A DNA stretch of 45,853 bases from a virus (taxonomy: Duplodnaviria; Heunggongvirae; Uroviricota; Caudoviricetes), in IMG/VR virus record IMGVR_UViG_3300014890_000015, positions 1 to 45,853 of that record. The stretch is one strand, 5' to 3'. Positions 3,193 through 39,651 of the stretch are shown here, in pieces; the stretch's first letter is position 1, and each line of letters opens with the position of its first letter. The notes under the pieces are model-generated. The model was not told where the DNA came from. It did not search any database and saw only the letters and a list, made by a program, of their open reading frames with translations. Made by a program: the position numbers and the translations under genes.

Positions 3193-4402
3193 ACTTGTTA
3201 ACTTGAACCTGTGATACCACCGTCGAAAAATAGGAATAGGTATCGCCATAAACCAGGCTTGTGTCTTTTGCCGGAGGAACAATATGGCCATTAATGCCAA
3301 TGCTCACACTGATTGTTGAGATCAACGTCGCATCAACCAACAATCTGACGGAACTGGTAAAAATATCCTGGATTCGCAGCAGATTTATCGGGTGTCCGAC
3401 TTCAATAGAATTGATGTAATCAGCAACGTTTTGCTGCACAGCCATAGCAATACCCGCCGGATCAACATAATCATCAGATACAGTGTTCCAGGTGATTAGC
3501 ACCATGACGTTTTGTGATGACGGGATAACGAACGGCACCTGATAAACATCTGGCGAAACGGTTATTGAAACCGTGCGTTTTTCCACTGCCGCACCAGATG
3601 GATTGCTAACATCGTTGGTCAGTTTCGAAATATCCGGTACAGATTTGTAAATAGCATAAGCCACATCATACGGATCACCGCCACCAACAACCGCAACCCA
3701 TTTCCCCAGCGACGACTGCCGGAAAGAAATCAGGTTTTCTCGCACACCGCTTACTGATTTGAGCATCGCTTTAAAGCAATCCGGTGTTCCCTGCACACCA
3801 AACATGCCGGACTCCATGACTTCGGCGCGGTAAGATGCCCACGTTTGCGCCTCCTGACCTGGCATCCCTGCGGTAAGGTTCGTGCATTTTACAGGCTGAT
3901 CTTTGGGTACCGATGTAATGACCTGCGTTACGGTTCCTTCCGGTACAGCCCATGAGCCTGACGTTGTGGCCACACAGTAGACTGGCTCAGTCTGCCCGCT
4001 TTCCGGCACCACCGTATCGCGGGAAACTGCATACTGGTAGTTGCCGTCACCGACAACAAATCCTTTAGGGATACCAAACCCCGGCAACGCCTCAAACACC
4101 ACGTATACCGCCGTATTTGTACTTAATCCCTTCTGTGCTCCATAAATGTTTCCGAGTTGCATCAGTAACGGAATATTTGCGCCGTATGGGCTTACGGAGT
4201 TAATAAGGTCCACCCGCGCCTGGTCTATTAATGCCAGCGCCCCGACTGCCGTGCTGGCAAGGTCAGTAATAAGCCCCGCCGGAAGGTTGGCTGTATATCC
4301 AGGTACTTTTTCAGCAACTCTGATGATAAGATTTGCAAGCAAATCATTGGGTGGCGTAGGCTGCGCCCCCGCACTGGTCATAGTAATTGGTATTTCTGAC
4401 AT
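3176..4402 (-). CDS. baseplate J-like protein
   Basis: 408 aa in conserved V-W-J-I-fibre order of P2/Mu-type baseplates. Confidence 0.5.
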   Translation of the reverse strand: MSEIPITMTSAGAQPTPPNDLLANLIIRVAEKVPGYTANLPAGLITDLASTAVGALALIDQARVDLINSVSPYGANIPLLMQLGNIYGAQKGLSTNTAVYVVFEALPGFGIPKGFVVGDGNYQYAVSRDTVVPESGQTEPVYCVATTSGSWAVPEGTVTQVITSVPKDQPVKCTNLTAGMPGQEAQTWASYRAEVMESGMFGVQGTPDCFKAMLKSVSGVRENLISFRQSSLGKWVAVVGGGDPYDVAYAIYKSVPDISKLTNDVSNPSGAAVEKRTVSITVSPDVYQVPFVIPSSQNVMVLITWNTVSDDYVDPAGIAMAVQQNVADYINSIEVGHPINLLRIQDIFTSSVRLLVDATLISTISVSIGINGHIVPPAKDTSLVYGDTYSYFSTVVSQVQVNKYAISD

Positions 4403-9004: not shown

Positions 9005-11068
9005 TTACCCCGATATTTGTTGCATTCCGGCGAGTTGTGCCAGTATGTCGGAACCTGGTTTTTGTTGAACGTCGAGCCTGATTACCTGAGAAGTATTATT
9101 TGGTGAATATACGTTCCCCCGGTTCATTGCCAGCGCCCGCATCACATCATCGCCACTTACTGCACGAGCGGCGTCCCCATTTTCATGGTTAATAATGCCC
9201 TGAATTAGCTTTCTCATTATCTCAAAATTAGAACCATCGATTTTCTCCTTAACACCTAATCCGGTGTACTGAGAGAGATAGCTTTTATAGGACGATGTGT
9301 TATTTCCATCAGATGAAGGGGCATAAATATCAATAATCTGATCAATCGTATTTTTGCCGCGTTTCAGGTATAGCATTACCTGCCGATCTAAGGCAGCAAT
9401 GCCTTCCAGCATCGTCGGGAAGCTGGCAAAACGGGCATTTGGCCCCGATTCCAGGGTAGCCCCTTTTTGTCCTGCGAAATTAAGATTTCCGGGATTGTTA
9501 TTCCTGATCCCTCTGGATAAATATGCAGATCTGTTTACTTGATTTGAAAATCCCTGCAATCCTCCAGGCCAGACCTTACCCGGATTGTTTTTTTGCCACT
9601 CCTGCACTTCGTTAAAATAATCAAAGTTGAAACGCCCCTCCAGCCCTTTCATTTCCTCACTGGTGGTAGGTGTGTCATTTGTAGGAATAGCCAATCCAGC
9701 TACTGTTCCGGCTGTAGCCCCAAGAAGACTTCCACCAACAACACGGGCGGCAACTCCGGTCGTTGTGGCGGCCACAGCACCAACTCTCGATGGTCCAGCA
9801 AGTACTGCGGCCCCAAAAAGCCAGGGATGTTCAACCGCAAAACCAACAAACCCGCTAAGTGCCTTAACAACCTTTGCAACATTTTCGGCAAAATTATTCA
9901 GGTCGTTATTAAAATCCGGGCCATTTACATACTTACCAAGTTTATCCAGACCTGTTTCAACATCAGTCAAAATTCTTTTAAAGTTCTCACCGTTAAGGAA
10001 ATTTAGACCAGCATTCTTTACACCATTAGATATTCTAATTAACTGTACAGAGTTACCCGACATTGCCCCCTGAAATCCGCTGGTAAGTTGATCCCAGTTA
10101 TTTTCTAAGTTGCTGGTAAGATTCTGATACTGGCTTGTATGTCCAGAGGTGAGCAACGAGTCATTCTGAGAAGCTCGCGATAAAAACTCTTTGTTGAGTT
10201 CAGGTATTTTGTCCTGATATTTGACTAACTGGTTAGCAATACCAAAATTTACCCATCCAAGGCCACGCCCCCTGAGCATGCTCTGAGTAAGTCCGGTTCC
10301 CTCATACTCCTTTGCAAGAGCAGCAACTCTTTCTAACAATACAGGAAGATTTTCTGCTGCCCCTTTTTTAGGATTTATCCCTAATCCAATTAGCCCGTTG
10401 TAGGCAGGATGCTGAGTGTCATTTTGCGCGGCTGCCAGTGTATTGAGCAAATTACCAACACCGGAAAAATAAGGCGAATAAGTGCTTTCTGCCGCCTTTA
10501 ACTCTCCTGGCGTTGCCTGCAATTCATCAGCATTTTTCTGTTTCTCTACAACATTACGAGCCATCATGCCAAAGCCGAACGGCCCGGCAACGCCCATAAC
10601 CGCAAGTTTTGTCCCCCACGATACGGTGGTTTTAAACAGGTTGTTTAATCTCGAAGTGGTCGTCCGTAGCGTAGAATTGATCTGCTTGTAAGTTTTCAGC
10701 GTCTGTTTGGCGTTTTTACCCAGACTACTGAGATACTTATCAAACATCGTTTCGCCGCGACCTTTATAGTTGCTCACCAGCGAATCAGGTGTTTTTCCGC
10801 TACCGACAAAGCGCCCTTTTTCATCCCTTAAACGTCCATCGGTGGGCGCAGGTGAAGATGGTTTTCTGGGAGCCTGATTGGCTTCTCCGCCTGTGGTTAT
10901 CTGCCGGGCGCCACCTCCCTGACCTGTATTTGAAGGTATTTTAAGCGGTGTCCCGGCAGGGCCAATCATCAGTCCGTTGCGATACTTTTCAAATATCGCC
11001 TCAAGCCGCTTGAGGTGTTCTTCATTAACGTCCAGCGTCAGAACTGGCATCTGGTTACCAGCCATCAC
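9005..11068 (-). CDS. tail tape measure protein
   Basis: 687 aa, Gly/Ala-rich hydrophobic central segment; follows tail chaperone pair; start overlaps stop of frameshift frame. Confidence 0.5.
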   Translation of the reverse strand: MMAGNQMPVLTLDVNEEHLKRLEAIFEKYRNGLMIGPAGTPLKIPSNTGQGGGARQITTGGEANQAPRKPSSPAPTDGRLRDEKGRFVGSGKTPDSLVSNYKGRGETMFDKYLSSLGKNAKQTLKTYKQINSTLRTTTSRLNNLFKTTVSWGTKLAVMGVAGPFGFGMMARNVVEKQKNADELQATPGELKAAESTYSPYFSGVGNLLNTLAAAQNDTQHPAYNGLIGLGINPKKGAAENLPVLLERVAALAKEYEGTGLTQSMLRGRGLGWVNFGIANQLVKYQDKIPELNKEFLSRASQNDSLLTSGHTSQYQNLTSNLENNWDQLTSGFQGAMSGNSVQLIRISNGVKNAGLNFLNGENFKRILTDVETGLDKLGKYVNGPDFNNDLNNFAENVAKVVKALSGFVGFAVEHPWLFGAAVLAGPSRVGAVAATTTGVAARVVGGSLLGATAGTVAGLAIPTNDTPTTSEEMKGLEGRFNFDYFNEVQEWQKNNPGKVWPGGLQGFSNQVNRSAYLSRGIRNNNPGNLNFAGQKGATLESGPNARFASFPTMLEGIAALDRQVMLYLKRGKNTIDQIIDIYAPSSDGNNTSSYKSYLSQYTGLGVKEKIDGSNFEIMRKLIQGIINHENGDAARAVSGDDVMRALAMNRGNVYSPNNTSQVIRLDVQQKPGSDILAQLAGMQQISG

Positions 11069-11747
11069 AATACTCCTGCGGGATTTTTGAGTTTGAGCAG
11101 CTCACGAAACTGAGCTGCTGTTTTTACATTCAAACCGGAATCTGCACAGATGTCTCTGAATCCGGCTCCGGCTGAGTAGTCGAGGATGTCGCTGATGATG
11201 TGTTCACCGTCGCGCCAGAACTGGCGGCAGACTTCAATGTCGGCAAGGAAGCAATCCAGTCCGTAAGATTCAAGGATGAGTATTGAGTGCTCCAGATTCC
11301 ATTGACCACATCCAGAGTCCCTTTCGCCTGCTCCGGCGAATTTATTGACGAGACGCATGTAAAAAAAACGAGTTCACCCGCAACATCATCCAGCTCAACG
11401 ATTTCACGCTCCAGCGCCATATCAAGAGGGATTGTGTCGTAACCTTTGCCCTCCACCGGATAAACAAGGTTTGCCAGGCGAATTATTTCGTTCACCAGCG
11501 TATTACGAACTCCCTTATCATCGTCCCAGATACCGGAATCACGCGAGATCCGCTCCAGCATCAGAAAAGCAACGCGCGGCCCGGCAACGACGCCAAGACC
11601 TTCGGAGAAAATGGCAGAAAAAGTTTTACTCAGAATGAAGAAATGCTCTTTAAACACCTCTTTGCTGATCGGCGTGGCATGGATCCAGCCATTACCCTTT
11701 TCTGTCCGGACAGGAATAATCAGATTCAGATTTCGGGAGATTTTCAT
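11065..11747 (-). CDS. tail assembly chaperone frameshift product (GT-like; predicted -1 slip at T8 run 11361-11368)
   Basis: Slippery GTTTTTTTTAC on coding strand; -1 frame stays open and ends in TGA overlapping tape-measure ATG. Confidence 0.4.
11130..11747 (-). CDS. tail assembly chaperone (G-like, zero-frame product)
   Basis: ATG at 11747 overlaps tube stop (ATGA); located between tube and tape measure. Confidence 0.5.
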   Translation of the reverse strand: MKISRNLNLIIPVRTEKGNGWIHATPISKEVFKEHFFILSKTFSAIFSEGLGVVAGPRVAFLMLERISRDSGIWDDDKGVRNTLVNEIIRLANLVYPVEGKGYDTIPLDMALEREIVELDDVAGELVFFTCVSSINSPEQAKGTLDVVNGIWSTQYSSLNLTDWIASLPTLKSAASSGATVNTSSATSSTTQPEPDSETSVQIPV

Positions 11748-12187
11748 ACCAGATCCCACATTTCAGAGTTGATGTAATACGTACCGGTAATGGTGATGGC
11801 CACACCCGGCTCGCCCCCGGCGAAGGTCATATCCTGCACGTTGGTGATCGCCGTGTTATAGATATCGAAGTCACCGAATACCGTGCTGTCGCTATACACT
11901 TTTGCGTCGCCGATCGTGGCGTTTTTTTCCCATTGCGCCTTGAATTGTTTTCCCAGCGCCTGGCTACGCAGCAGATGAACACGCGCCTGTAAAATCATGT
12001 ATGGCTGCGGCGACTGCACGGCTCCCGTCATAGCGGGTAAAAACTCCGTGATATTGCCCTGAAAGGACAATTCGACGCCTTCTTTTGCCAGAAATGAGGC
12101 GGACACATTCAGTTCGGAATGAGAGGTGAATTTAACGCTGGCGCGAACCCGGTTAAGGGTGCCAACGGGGATCATTGGATTAGGCAC
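11744..12187 (-). CDS. tail tube protein
   Basis: 147 aa directly after sheath gene; GTG start with GAGGGA RBS. Confidence 0.5.
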   Translation of the reverse strand: MPNPMIPVGTLNRVRASVKFTSHSELNVSASFLAKEGVELSFQGNITEFLPAMTGAVQSPQPYMILQARVHLLRSQALGKQFKAQWEKNATIGDAKVYSDSTVFGDFDIYNTAITNVQDMTFAGGEPGVAITITGTYYINSEMWDLV

Positions 12188-12198
12188 GGTTCAGTCCC

Positions 12199-13536
12199 TC
12201 ACGAAAGCTGCATTGTCACATTGATGTTAAAAATGATTTCGACAAATCCGCGCATCGGCGTATAGGAGGCCGAAAGGCCCGCATAACGCCCGATACCGTA
12301 ATCATTCGGATTAGTGTTGATATACTGGCGGAAAGGCACTGCATCGACGACAGGCTGACCGTTGACCAGGCCGTAAGATACGCCCGTATTGAACACCGCC
12401 TGTGCGACCTGCTGTAGACGGTCGATCCCGTCCTGGTTGTAGTAAAGCGGGTTAATTGGGTTATTGCTACCGTTGATCACCGTGTTGGCGAGCTGCATAT
12501 CGACGTTAATCTGCACCCAGTCCACGGAATACCAGTACGTCATATCGTTACCGTCACTGGTAACGCCTTTCACCAGAATCGTGTTGGAAATTCCCCCCTC
12601 AGCCCCCGTGTCGACGTAGTTAATATTCTGCTTTGTCATCGTGACCAGAATTGAATTTTTGCCCTTGTGGGCGTTTACCGCCTGTAGATAGCGAAATGCC
12701 ATCGGCGGCACCTTGTTGATTTCTGAAGGTGATGCGGAAACATAGTTCCACATTACGGCTGCTGCCGCGTTTGTCGCCGGGTACGTATCATCCGCCGTTG
12801 CAATAACCGACTTAATACCGGCATAAGGCGAAACGTAATTCGTGTCGTCCGGCGTTTTCGTCAGCACGAAAAAATACTGCATCGCTTCGTTTGCGGTGTG
12901 GAGTTTTGCCAGACTGATAAACTCTGCGTCACCATCCCACGGCTGCGGCACCAGATACGCATAAAAACGCAGGAGCGGATCTTCCATATAAGCTTTCAGT
13001 GCAGCGATTTCCTTACTGACTCCGCCTTTCTGTGCTCCCAGCTCCAGCAGGTAAATCCCCACTGAATTTCCCTGGGCAAAAAACGTGTTTACTGCCGTCA
13101 CCAGATTTTCACTGCCAACAATGGAAAACTGCCCCAGTGTCACTGGCGAACCGGAAAGCTGAGAATCAGCAATCGTCCAGGTCAGTGTTTTTTCATCCGT
13201 GACGGTAGCAGTATATTCGCCATTCCACGCGTCGGGCGAACACCCGGAAACAACAATTTTCACCTCAGAACTGTTTTCGCGTCGGATGTTGCTCCCTTCC
13301 GGAAGCGTCATCGTAACGGTGACGTTTGCCGCAGATTTTCCTGCGGCAGCCGCCGACAACGCAGCAATCGGATTTCTTACCAGATCGTTAATATCCTGAT
13401 TACGGGTGAGTAATACAGGCTTTCCCGACTCATGAGTCGTGGAGCCAAACGAGAGAACCGCAGACATCTGCTGCAAATTCGAGGGAATGGCCCCGATGGT
13501 CTGGGACACATTCACCGTGACGATATTAAACCCCAT
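12199..13536 (-). CDS. tail sheath protein
   Basis: 445 aa, typical size and position ahead of tube gene. Confidence 0.55.
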   Translation of the reverse strand: MGFNIVTVNVSQTIGAIPSNLQQMSAVLSFGSTTHESGKPVLLTRNQDINDLVRNPIAALSAAAAGKSAANVTVTMTLPEGSNIRRENSSEVKIVVSGCSPDAWNGEYTATVTDEKTLTWTIADSQLSGSPVTLGQFSIVGSENLVTAVNTFFAQGNSVGIYLLELGAQKGGVSKEIAALKAYMEDPLLRFYAYLVPQPWDGDAEFISLAKLHTANEAMQYFFVLTKTPDDTNYVSPYAGIKSVIATADDTYPATNAAAAVMWNYVSASPSEINKVPPMAFRYLQAVNAHKGKNSILVTMTKQNINYVDTGAEGGISNTILVKGVTSDGNDMTYWYSVDWVQINVDMQLANTVINGSNNPINPLYYNQDGIDRLQQVAQAVFNTGVSYGLVNGQPVVDAVPFRQYINTNPNDYGIGRYAGLSASYTPMRGFVEIIFNINVTMQLS

Positions 13537-25826: not shown

Positions 25827-25852
25827 AAAAAAAACCGCCAGATATGGCGGTT
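25827..25852 (-). terminator. strong rho-independent terminator on late-operon strand
   Basis: AACCGCC-ATATCT-GGCGGTT followed by T8 on the minus strand. Confidence 0.55.
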
Positions 25853-36779: not shown

Positions 36780-37038
36780 GAATCAACTCCTGTGCATTTT
36801 GTGTGTTAGCCTTACATCCAACAGGTAAACCATCGGTCGGATTCGGGTAGATATCAGGCCGGAGTTCATGAGGTGTAACCTCGAAATTCGTAGCCTCTGC
36901 GATACGCAATACCTTTTCAGGGCTTAACTGACTACGTCCAGTAGCAGCGAGGCTAATCATTGATTGCGAACAACCAGCCAGCGCGGCCAAACAAGACTGT
37001 CGTACACGATTTTTTTTCAAATATTCATCTAATGTCAT
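36763..37038 (-). CDS. Cro/YdaS-like HTH protein
   Basis: GAGGTGA RBS; HTH-like segment; first gene of rightward early operon, divergent from repressor. Confidence 0.5.
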   Translation of the reverse strand: MTLDEYLKKNRVRQSCLAALAGCSQSMISLAATGRSQLSPEKVLRIAEATNFEVTPHELRPDIYPNPTDGLPVGCKANTQNAQELIHENQA

Positions 37039-37142: not shown

Positions 37143-37607
37143 ATGAGAAGAAAACGCGAAGAAATCGCATCGCCGGAAGCTACGCAACGTCTGCGCGCAA
37201 TCTGGGATGCAAAAAAAAGAGAGCTCAAACTGACTCAGGAGCTTGCTGCCGAGCTAATGGGTTTTGAGGCGCAATCTGCGGTTAGCCATTATCTCAACGG
37301 AAAGGCTCCACTTAATACTGATGCGGCATTAAAATTCGCTGTATTACTAAGAGTTAAGCCTGAAGAGTTGAGGCCTGATTTAGCTGATCTGATGAATTAC
37401 GTCCGTTCCTCAGGAACTTATGACGAAAGTTTCGAAGGCGAAGGTTGGCGGATGGTTAACAAGCAACAAGCTGATTTACTAGATCTTTTTGATATCCTTC
37501 CCGAATCAGAAAAAGCAAAACTAATCGAAAGACTTAAAGGTCAGAATGAACTCTACAAAGAAGCATTTGAAAATATGCTGGCAGCTCAAAAACGCATGAA
37601 GAAATAG
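37143..37607 (+). CDS. prophage repressor (RacR-like, HTH)
   Basis: 154 aa with Xre-type HTH segment; divergent from Cro-like gene; followed by terminator. Confidence 0.55.
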   Translation: MRRKREEIASPEATQRLRAIWDAKKRELKLTQELAAELMGFEAQSAVSHYLNGKAPLNTDAALKFAVLLRVKPEELRPDLADLMNYVRSSGTYDESFEGEGWRMVNKQQADLLDLFDILPESEKAKLIERLKGQNELYKEAFENMLAAQKRMKK

Positions 37608-37652: not shown

Positions 37653-37846
37653 GTCCCCTCCGCCCGCCCCGCCTTACTTTTTATCAAAAAAAACACTAAA
37701 AATTTCATTAGGATAGTACATTTTTATCAACAAAATGCATATTTCTATTGATCATCAATATGAACATTACTAATATTATTACAGAAGCAGCACGGCGCTG
37801 TAGGTTTTAGTTCCGCCACCCGGCGTTAAGGGGAAATGAGGTCAAC

Positions 37847-39275: not shown

Positions 39276-39551
39276 ATGATTACCAGTTATGAAGCCACTG
39301 TTGTTACTACTGATGACATCGTTCACGAAGTCAGCCTGGAAGGAAAGCGTATTGGCTACGTGATTAAAACAGAAAATAAAGAAACCCCTTTCACTGTGGT
39401 TGATATCGACGGTCCATCAGGCAACGTTAAAACACTTAACGAAGGCGTCAAAAAAATGTGCCTGGTGCATATCGGAAAGAATCTGCCCGCAGAAAAAAAA
39501 GCCGAATTTCTGGCAACTCTGATTGCAATGAAATCAAAGGGTGAAATCTGA
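39276..39551 (+). CDS. hypothetical protein (91 aa; RacC-like position)
   Basis: AAGGAGA RBS before ATG 39276; immediately upstream of recE. Confidence 0.4.
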   Translation: MITSYEATVVTTDDIVHEVSLEGKRIGYVIKTENKETPFTVVDIDGPSGNVKTLNEGVKKMCLVHIGKNLPAEKKAEFLATLIAMKSKGEI

Positions 39552-39651
39552 AAAAAAAGAAAGCCTGCACACTGTGCAGGCCTGAGTGAAGAACCTGGGA
39601 CATTTATTCATCACTCGCAGTAATTTTAATCTGAGTTGAGGTTAAAAAACA

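What the first reader, a model, noticed from the sequence alone, without database searches (positions are those of the whole stretch)
11065..11747. Likely programmed -1 frameshift in the tail assembly chaperone
The coding strand has GTTTTTTTTAC (plus-strand A8 at 11361..11368). The zero frame continues to 11130, while the -1 frame stays open from the slip site and stops in a TGA that overlaps the tape-measure ATG at 11065. Position between tube and tape measure and the slippery run match the conserved G/GT arrangement, though here the zero-frame product is nearly as long as the fusion, which is atypical.
Basis: partly seen in the sequence, partly recalled or inferred. Interest (0 to 1): 0.4.

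Follow-up and report, generated by a model that had tools for sequence, protein, structure and literature searches.

The report
Frameshift site in tail chaperone gene
A run of T's in a prophage tail-assembly gene very probably makes some ribosomes slip back one base, giving two proteins with the same front half and different back halves; this is a known phage trick, but here the slip sits unusually far from the gene's end.

Summary
On the minus strand, the gene between the sheath and tube-like genes and the tape-measure gene (11747..11130, 205 aa) reads GTT TTT TTT ACA at codons 127-130. That is a U_UUU_UUU heptamer in the correct register (11367..11361).

- **Reading frame.** The -1 frame has 12 stops in the first 374 nt. 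It opens 6 nt before the heptamer and stays open for 309 nt, ending in a TGA that overlaps the tape-measure ATG at 11065.
- **Conservation.** The heptamer is kept in all 54 unique close relatives. It is also kept, in register, in 8 distant lineages at 30-47% protein identity.
- **Coding signal.** Wobble-position variation moves to the -1 frame downstream of the site, and the -1 peptide is conserved family-wide.
- **Rivals.** The ATG just after the run is absent in distant relatives, so independent initiation is rejected.
- **Atypical feature.** The long zero-frame extension is real and selected. Residues 130-172 are conserved and are modelled with high confidence, contiguous with the confidently modelled residues 1-129. 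A disordered tail with a conserved terminal Pro motif follows. The frameshift therefore swaps C-terminal modules across 54-76 dual-coding codons.

No database annotates this frameshift. Verdict: a new variant of the G/GT tail-chaperone frameshift. No experiment has been done, and transcriptional slippage is not excluded.

The parts
11130..11747 (-). Zero-frame chaperone gene (205 aa plus stop). Its ATG overlaps the stop of the upstream tube-like gene (ATGA).
   Evidence: phrog_11810 matches over the full length. More than 1200 homologues of 186-205 aa exist. The AlphaFold model has pLDDT above 90 for residues 1-172.
11361..11367 (-). Slippery heptamer T_TTT_TTT (U_UUU_UUU) in the zero-frame register. 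It is part of the T8 run 11361..11368.
   Evidence: It is invariant in 54/54 unique close relatives (one is T_TTT_TTC) and in 8 distant lineages.
11065..11361 (-). -1 frame extension (98 codons plus TGA), read after re-reading the T at 11361. The fusion is join(11747..11361, 11361..11065), 227 aa.
   Evidence: phrog_14324 matches it. The motif YG.D.F.AD.E..RQFWRDGE...GF...R is conserved down to 30% identity.
11133..11360 (-). Dual-coding overlap of 76 codons, read in both the zero frame and the -1 frame.
   Evidence: Variation is spread over codon positions and overall diversity is reduced. Both translations are conserved, while the third frame holds 1-6 stops in every lineage.
11065..11129 (-). 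Stretch after the zero-frame stop that looks intergenic in annotations but codes in the -1 frame only.
   Evidence: Variation peaks at the -1 frame wobble position (0.315 against 0.106 and 0.128). RefSeq leaves it unannotated.
9005..11065 (-). Tape-measure protein gene with a C-terminal lytic-transglycosylase domain. AGGAG lies 7 nt upstream of its ATG, and the ATG overlaps the stop of the -1 frame.
11744..12187 (-). Tube-like gene (147 aa; PGAP starts it at 12175). It is assigned by position and size only.
   Evidence: phrog_6566 has unknown function. A gene of 146-149 aa holds this place after the sheath gene in all relatives.
12199..13536 (-). Tail sheath gene.
   Evidence: phrog_205, tail sheath, E = 5.7e-53.

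Best explanation
The gene at 11747..11130 is the tail assembly chaperone of an Escherichia coli myovirus-type prophage. Most ribosomes read it straight through and make a 205-aa protein. That protein has a folded domain (about residues 1-172), a disordered Ser/Thr-rich tail, and a conserved terminal hydrophobic-Pro motif.

A minority of ribosomes, with the two Phe-tRNAs on UUU UUU (codons 128-129), slip back one base on U_UUU_UUU. They continue in the -1 frame (…ELVFF-YMRLVNK…) for 98 more codons. They terminate on the TGA that overlaps the tape-measure ATG, giving a 227-aa protein.

The two products share residues 1-129 and carry different C-terminal modules. By analogy with lambda G/GT, the shared part would coat the tape-measure protein, and the -1 module would recruit the tube protein.

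Shown here: the site, its register, its conservation, selection on both frames, and the synteny. Inferred: that slippage occurs, its efficiency, that the ribosome is what slips, and the binding partners.
For: - **Heptamer.** It is in register and is the only one in the permissive window. The -1 frame opens 6 nt before it and closes on the tape-measure start.
- **Conservation against a synonymous background.** The heptamer is kept in 54/54 unique close relatives while neighbouring codons 124-126 and 131 vary synonymously. Other conserved Phe codons are about half TTC.
- **Distant lineages.** Eight lineages keep NNT TTT TTT at residues 126-131: six metagenomic or MAG loci, Klebsiella phage Chronis and Pantoea phage PdC23, at 30-47% identity. 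Seven of the eight have exactly seven T's (Chronis has eight). The codon before is ACT, AGT, GTT or TGT, always ending in T.
- **Wobble shift.** Diversity by zero-frame codon position 1/2/3 is 0.12/0.09/0.44 upstream of the site and 0.11/0.32/0.13 after the zero-frame stop. There, position 2 is the -1 wobble.
- **-1 peptide.** It is conserved at 33% mean identity across lineages, with 8 invariant residues. Homopolymer-length variants that encode the fusion in one frame align over all 227 residues. One of them differs from its 201-aa twin exactly after VFF.
- **Known slippery motifs.** U_UU.U_UU.U and U_UU.U_UU.C belong to the efficient H_HH.U_UU.Y class in E. coli. UUUUUUU is otherwise avoided in E. 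coli genes (PMC4066793).
- **Position and fold.** The gene lies between the sheath and tube-like genes and the tape measure. Weak fold matches are enriched for annotated tail assembly chaperones.
Against: - There is no experimental evidence for the fusion protein.
- No conserved downstream RNA structure was found (consensus -1.7 kcal/mol), so efficiency rests on the heptamer alone.
- There is no sequence match to any Pfam or NCBIfam chaperone family and no match to any PDB chain by sequence. The PDB fold search found nothing significant. The chaperone role therefore rests on position, the recoding signature and weak BFVD matches.
- The slip is 76 codons before the zero-frame stop, unlike canonical G/GT.
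- The -1 domain model is of low confidence.
- The in-frame 'fusion' proteins in databases are most simply homopolymer errors, so they are not independent proof.
Confidence: 0.8

Rival explanations
1. The fusion is made by transcriptional slippage. RNA polymerase adds one extra U on the T8 run (T7 in most relatives), giving a minority of U9 mRNAs. Normal translation of these yields the identical 227-aa protein.
For: The run is a homopolymer of 8 in this lineage. UUUUUUU is avoided in all three frames in E. coli genes, and the authors suggest transcriptional slippage or indel mutation as possible reasons (PMC4066793). T9 variants turn up in assemblies. The protein product would be indistinguishable from that of a ribosomal shift.
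Against: Seven of the eight distant lineages have only T7, and one close relative has T7 followed by C. From my own knowledge, bacterial RNA polymerase slips efficiently mainly on runs of 9 or more. The run is always in the X_XXY_YYZ register, with the preceding wobble base fixed as T. A ribosomal shift requires that register; a polymerase does not, although the conserved Phe-Phe pair partly explains it.
Confidence: 0.12
2. There are two separate overlapping genes. The 97-aa ORF (11358..11065) starts independently at the ATG just after the T-run, and no fusion is made. This is how the ORF is clustered in PHROGs (phrog_14324).
For: An ATG follows the run by two bases and is kept in all close relatives. 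A PHROG family of 97-aa proteins exists.
Against: There is no Shine-Dalgarno sequence: the 11 bases before the ATG are TTTTTTTTAC preceded by G. In 8 distant lineages the -1 frame has no start codon near the run (Y-G, Y-I, Y-S, Y-L, Y-C), yet the heptamer and the -1 domain are kept. The Tyr codon before the ATG, the first -1 codon after the slip, is conserved in nearly all sequences. The -1 frame opens only 6 nt before the heptamer.
Confidence: 0.04
3. It is an assembly error or a decaying gene. The true gene would be a single in-frame 227-aa ORF (T9), and T8 would be a homopolymer miscall or a pseudogene.
For: Rare T9 versions exist: L029 and L073, and P0271-P0274, P0139 and P0241.
Against: T8 or T7 is found in over 97% of loci. 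The 205-aa form occurs on many hundreds of independent contigs, including complete genomes; P0065 alone is on at least 1000 contigs. The zero-frame extension is conserved (W152 and L168 invariant, P204 nearly so) and residues 130-172 are modelled with high confidence. A frame exposed by an error would not show this.
Confidence: 0.02

Closest known systems
Bacteriophage lambda G/GT tail assembly chaperones, and the conserved -1 frameshift of tailed-phage chaperone genes (Levin et al. 1993; Xu et al. 2004, 2013, 2014; summarised in PMC5009743)
   Same: The gene lies immediately upstream of the tape-measure gene and downstream of the tail tube gene. It has an in-register X_XXY_YYZ heptamer. The -1 ORF has no start of its own in most lineages and ends at the tape-measure gene. 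Two products share an N-terminal part. There is no obligatory downstream RNA structure.
   Different: - In lambda and most phages the shift is 'near the 3' end' of G, so GT contains essentially all of G (PMC5009743).
- The mean distance from slip site to zero-frame stop in 2,476 annotated actinophage frameshift genes, 2,397 of them tail assembly chaperones, is 26 nt (PMC10274946). Here it is 228 nt (162-228 nt across the family).
- The bypassed 40 or so residues are conserved and confidently modelled, so the shift replaces a module instead of appending one.
- There is no detectable sequence similarity to G or T.
- The heptamer is U_UUU_UUU, not G_GGA_AAG.
Phage P2 E / E+E' (myovirus tail chaperones; -1 shift on a T-rich heptamer; from my own knowledge)
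   Same: It is a contractile-tail phage. The chaperone gene lies between the tube and tape-measure genes. The slippery site is a T-run.
   Different: The P2 slip is a few codons from the end of E, and E is only about 91 aa. No sequence similarity was found here.
Pakpunavirus and Andersonviridae myophage chaperone locus with a conserved GTTTTT motif (PMC12846349)
   Same: The frameshift is unannotated in public genomes and was inferred in the same way: an uninterrupted -1 frame across diverged alleles and a conserved poly-T motif.
   Different: That motif lies at the 3' end of the short-isoform gene. It is a different protein family, and no long dual-coding region is described.
Recoding sites that switch C-terminal modules, such as E. 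coli dnaX tau/gamma (from my own knowledge and PMC5009743)
   Same: A -1 shift well inside a long ORF gives two products with a common N-terminal part.
   Different: The dnaX shift leads almost at once to a stop, producing a truncation. Here both frames run on for 76 and 98 codons and both are conserved.

Membership tests
G/GT-type tail assembly chaperone with programmed -1 frameshift | The gene lies between the tail tube gene and the tape-measure gene. | tested here: met
   The sheath gene (phrog_205) is followed by a 147-aa gene, this gene, and a 686-aa tape-measure protein with an SLT domain. The same order is found in 10 other lineages. The tube assignment rests on position only.
G/GT-type tail assembly chaperone with programmed -1 frameshift | An X_XXY_YYZ slippery heptamer in the zero-frame register, conserved among relatives. 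| tested here: met
   T_TTT_TTT lies at 11367..11361. It is kept in 54/54 close and 8/8 distant lineages.
G/GT-type tail assembly chaperone with programmed -1 frameshift | The -1 ORF is open from the slip site, has no initiation signal of its own, is under purifying selection, and ends at or near the tape-measure start. | tested here: met
   This lineage has an ATG after the site, but it lacks a Shine-Dalgarno sequence and is not conserved in distant lineages.
G/GT-type tail assembly chaperone with programmed -1 frameshift | [quoted passage not shown] | tested here: not met
   The slip is at codons 127-129 of 205, which leaves 76 zero-frame codons downstream (54-65 in distant relatives). Residues 130-172 are conserved and modelled at pLDDT above 90, and helix 119-135 spans the site.
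G/GT-type tail assembly chaperone with programmed -1 frameshift | Sequence or fold homology to recognised chaperone families. | tested here: inconclusive
   Pfam, NCBIfam and the PDB sequence search give nothing. The PDB fold search has no match at E <= 0.001. In BFVD the best match (E = 1e-4) is an uncharacterised protein. Weaker matches follow (probability up to 0.93, TM-score 0.3-0.5), several of them annotated as tail assembly or tape-measure chaperones.
G/GT-type tail assembly chaperone with programmed -1 frameshift | Both products are made at a fixed low ratio, both are required for tail assembly, and both are absent from virions. The short part binds the tape measure and the -1 part binds the tube protein. 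| not testable with these tools
   This needs proteomics, genetics and binding assays.
Programmed transcriptional slippage site | A homopolymer long enough for efficient polymerase slippage (about 9 or more A/T; from my own knowledge), with no requirement for a reading-frame register. | tested here: not met
   The run is T8 here, T7 in seven of eight distant lineages, and T7 followed by C in L064. It is always in the ribosomal register. Low-level slippage on T7-T8 is not excluded.
Independently translated overlapping gene | A conserved start codon with a ribosome-binding site for the embedded ORF. | tested here: not met
   No Shine-Dalgarno sequence precedes ATG 11358. No start codon lies near the site in 8 distant lineages.

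The most novel reading that the evidence does not exclude
In this large, uncharacterised family of simple-myophage chaperones, the frameshift is not an 'append a T domain' device. It is a mid-domain switch. Ribosomes choose, inside a helix of the folded chaperone, between two alternative and independently conserved C-terminal modules. One is the last 40 or so residues of the confidently modelled region plus a disordered tail ending in a conserved hydrophobic-Pro motif. The other is a roughly 98-residue helical domain. The two are encoded by the same 54-76 codons in two frames, and this dual coding has been kept across lineages that share only 30-47% protein identity. It would be among the longer conserved dual-coding regions known in phage structural genes. 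It would also imply that the long isoform has a differently shaped chaperone core than the short one.
Probability: 0.6. Interest if true: 0.5.

Novelty: new variant of a known kind. Interest (0 to 1): 0.4.

Why it matters
- **Annotation.** This gene family has more than 1200 members in E. coli, Salmonella, Klebsiella and Pantoea phages and in environmental Pseudomonadota. It is labelled 'hypothetical protein' everywhere, no frameshift is recorded, and the last 60-130 nt before the tape-measure gene are left as a false intergenic gap or as a spurious 97-aa gene. Naming it a frameshifted tail assembly chaperone fixes the tail-module annotation for a whole phage group, which includes the recently proposed Chronis/Roth lineage.
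- **Prediction tools.** Frameshift predictors use closeness of the slip site to the stop codon as a feature. PRFect was trained on annotated frameshifts with a mean distance of 26 nt and found only two of 43 test cases beyond 51 nt. Such tools will miss this class.
- **Biology.** The family gives a clean natural case for asking how a chaperone works when its long isoform lacks part of the short isoform's fold, and how two protein modules co-evolve in one stretch of DNA.

Tried and rejected
- **Downstream RNA stimulator.** A small hairpin in the window starts 20 nt after the site and is not conserved. The consensus fold of 15 diverged sequences is -1.7 kcal/mol with essentially no covariation.
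- **Rosetta-stone evidence from in-frame fusion proteins** (P0125, P0128, P0133, P0139, P0241). P0139 is 98% identical to the 201-aa P0275 from a sister sample and diverges exactly after VFF. These are therefore best read as one-base homopolymer differences. I use them only to show that the -1 frame is open and conserved. DNA for those contigs was not available.
- **Profile-based locus searches in genome contigs.** They failed for lack of a conserved 7-residue stretch.
- **Single-protein scans of viral contigs** with three distant members found nothing.
- **Sequence family searches.** Pfam, NCBIfam and the PDB sequence search gave nothing. The PDB fold search gave only noise.
- **Model of the fusion.** It was too shallow to interpret beyond 'helical'.
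- **Upstream Shine-Dalgarno-like stimulator.** A Gly codon preceded by purines sits about 7-13 nt upstream in several lineages. It is not separable from the conserved Glu-Gly residues, so I did not pursue it.
- **Literature.** Searches found no description of this family's frameshift.
Full report
**What is there**

All genes discussed are on the minus strand. The window carries a contractile-tail module:
- a sheath gene at 12199..13536 (phrog_205, E = 5.7e-53);
- a 147-aa tube-like gene at 11744..12187;
- a 205-aa gene at 11747..11130;
- a 686-aa tape-measure protein with a C-terminal lytic-transglycosylase domain, starting at ATG 11065.

The region is 99.9% identical to a prophage in E. coli JNEC-KY178 and 91% identical to phage Rac-SA53.

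**The observation**

- The coding strand reads GAA CTC GTT TTT TTT ACA TGC (codons 125-131).
- The T8 run is the plus-strand A8 at 11361..11368.
- Its last seven bases form T_TTT_TTT in the zero-frame register.
- The -1 frame has 12 stops in gene nt 1-374, the last 6 nt before the heptamer. It has none for the next 309 nt, up to the TGA at 11067..11065, which overlaps the tape-measure ATG.
- No other in-register heptamer lies in that window.
- The fusion would be 227 aa (…AGELVFF-YMRLVNK…).

Every coordinate in the finding is correct.

**Conservation of the site**

*Close relatives.* I examined 73 related loci (two phage records and 71 IMG/VR loci, 66-100% nucleotide identity).
- 70 have T8.
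- One has T7 followed by C, which is still a valid T_TTT_TTC.
- Two have T9.
- In the 54 unique sequences, codon 127 is GTT or ATT, codon 128 is TTT in 54/54, and codon 129 is TTT in 53 and TTC in 1.
- Neighbouring codons vary synonymously, and other conserved Phe codons of the gene are TTC:TTT = 111:101.

*Distant relatives.* I checked eight lineages at 30-47% protein identity: six metagenomic or MAG loci (L074-L079), Klebsiella phage Chronis and Pantoea phage PdC23.
- All keep NNT TTT TTT at residues 126-131, and seven of the eight have exactly seven T's.
- The preceding codon is ACT, AGT, GTT or TGT, always ending in T.
- In each, the -1 frame runs from the site to within a few bases of the tape-measure start.

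U_UU.U_UU.U and U_UU.U_UU.C are experimentally efficient -1 motifs in E. coli, and UUUUUUU is otherwise avoided in its genes (PMC4066793).

**Which frames code**

Mean pairwise diversity by zero-frame codon position:

| Region | Position 1 | Position 2 | Position 3 |
|---|---|---|---|
| Upstream of the site | 0.12 | 0.09 | 0.44 |
| Overlap | 0.12 | 0.21 | 0.20 |
| After the zero-frame stop | 0.11 | 0.32 | 0.13 |

- Zero-frame position 2 is the -1 wobble position. The table therefore shows ordinary zero-frame coding upstream and -1 coding after the zero-frame stop.
- Across eight lineages (the window, close relative L069 and six distant loci), mean protein identity is 48% for the shared N-terminal part, 39% for the zero-frame extension and 33% for the -1 extension.
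- The third frame holds 1-6 stops in every lineage.
- Synonymous-resampling tests give P = 0.03-0.29 per lineage for the zero frame staying open given the -1 protein, and 0.008-0.13 for the converse. Over seven lineages these multiply to about 2e-7 and 1e-9. One codon table was used for all lineages, so these values are rough.

**The atypical part is real**

- The zero-frame product is 186-205 aa throughout a family of more than 1200 proteins, with F128/F129, W152 and L168 invariant and P204 nearly so.
- An AlphaFold model built on 60 sequences has mean pLDDT 84 and pTM 0.79, with pLDDT above 90 for residues 1-172.
- In that model helix 119-135 spans the slip site, two further helices and a strand follow it, and residues 173-205 are disordered.
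- The frameshift product therefore lacks the last 40 or so residues of the short form's confidently modelled region and carries a different, helical 98-residue module (low-confidence model).
- Canonical G/GT shifts occur near the 3' end of G (PMC5009743). Annotated actinophage frameshift genes, nearly all of them tail assembly chaperones, average 26 nt from slip to stop (PMC10274946). Here the distance is 228 nt.

**Rivals**

- *Independent initiation at ATG 11358.* Rejected. There is no Shine-Dalgarno sequence, and the start is absent in all distant lineages, which nevertheless keep the heptamer and the -1 domain.
- *Assembly error.* Rejected, given the abundance of the T8 form and the selection on the zero-frame extension.
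- *In-frame fusion proteins in databases.* These are best explained as one-base homopolymer differences.
- *Transcriptional slippage.* Not excluded, since it would give the same protein. It is disfavoured by the T7 runs and the fixed register.
- *Downstream RNA structure.* No conserved one exists.

**What it is called**

- There are no Pfam, NCBIfam or PDB matches, and the PHROG entries are 'unknown function'.
- BFVD fold matches are weak but include several annotated tail or tape-measure chaperones.
- GenBank and RefSeq annotate only a hypothetical 205-aa protein with no slippage.
- The papers that mention these phages do not discuss the site.

**Verdict**

This is a well-supported but experimentally untested programmed -1 frameshift in a tail assembly chaperone. 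It belongs to the known G/GT kind by position and logic. It departs from that kind in where the shift occurs and in having a long, conserved dual-coding region.

Noticed in passing
window 11130..11230 (minus strand; residues 173-205 of the zero-frame product): The short chaperone ends in a disordered Ser/Thr-rich tail (pLDDT below 50) that finishes with a hydrophobic-Pro-[Ser/Gly/Val] motif. P204 is kept in at least 90% of 60 diverse homologues. It looks like a short docking motif.
   Followed up: partly
window 9005..11065 (minus strand): The tape-measure protein carries a C-terminal lytic transglycosylase or lysozyme-like domain (about residues 494-650). Relatives have SLT or Phage_lysozyme2 domains in the same place.
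   Followed up: no
L082 3131 against 3197 (Klebsiella phage vB_Kpn_Chronis, MN013086): The annotated tape-measure start is probably 66 nt too far upstream. ATG 3197, preceded by AAGAAAGAGG, fits the end of the -1 ORF at 3207 and matches the N-terminus seen in relatives.
   Followed up: partly
L002 (PP818812, 'Actinobacillus phage vB_Apl-pPE4'): This record is 97% identical over the queried tail-gene stretch (window 10900..12300) to an E. coli prophage family found in 92 complete E. coli genomes. The stated Actinobacillus host looks doubtful.
   Followed up: no
L029, L073; proteins P0271-P0274, P0139, P0241: About 1-3% of relatives carry one extra T (T9), which encodes the fusion in one frame. 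These could be homopolymer sequencing errors or real indel variants that make only the long isoform.
   Followed up: partly
window 25827..25834, 37010..37017, 37211..37218, 37686..37693, 39493..39500, 39551..39558: There are six further A8/T8 runs, five of them clustered in the lower-GC stretch at about 37-39.6 kb, where GC skew changes sign. I did not examine them.
   Followed up: no
window 11744..11747 and 11063..11068: The gene junctions are tightly coupled. The tube-like stop overlaps the chaperone start (ATGA), and the -1 frame stop overlaps the tape-measure start (TGATG). The zero-frame stop lies 62 nt short of the tape-measure start.
   Followed up: yes
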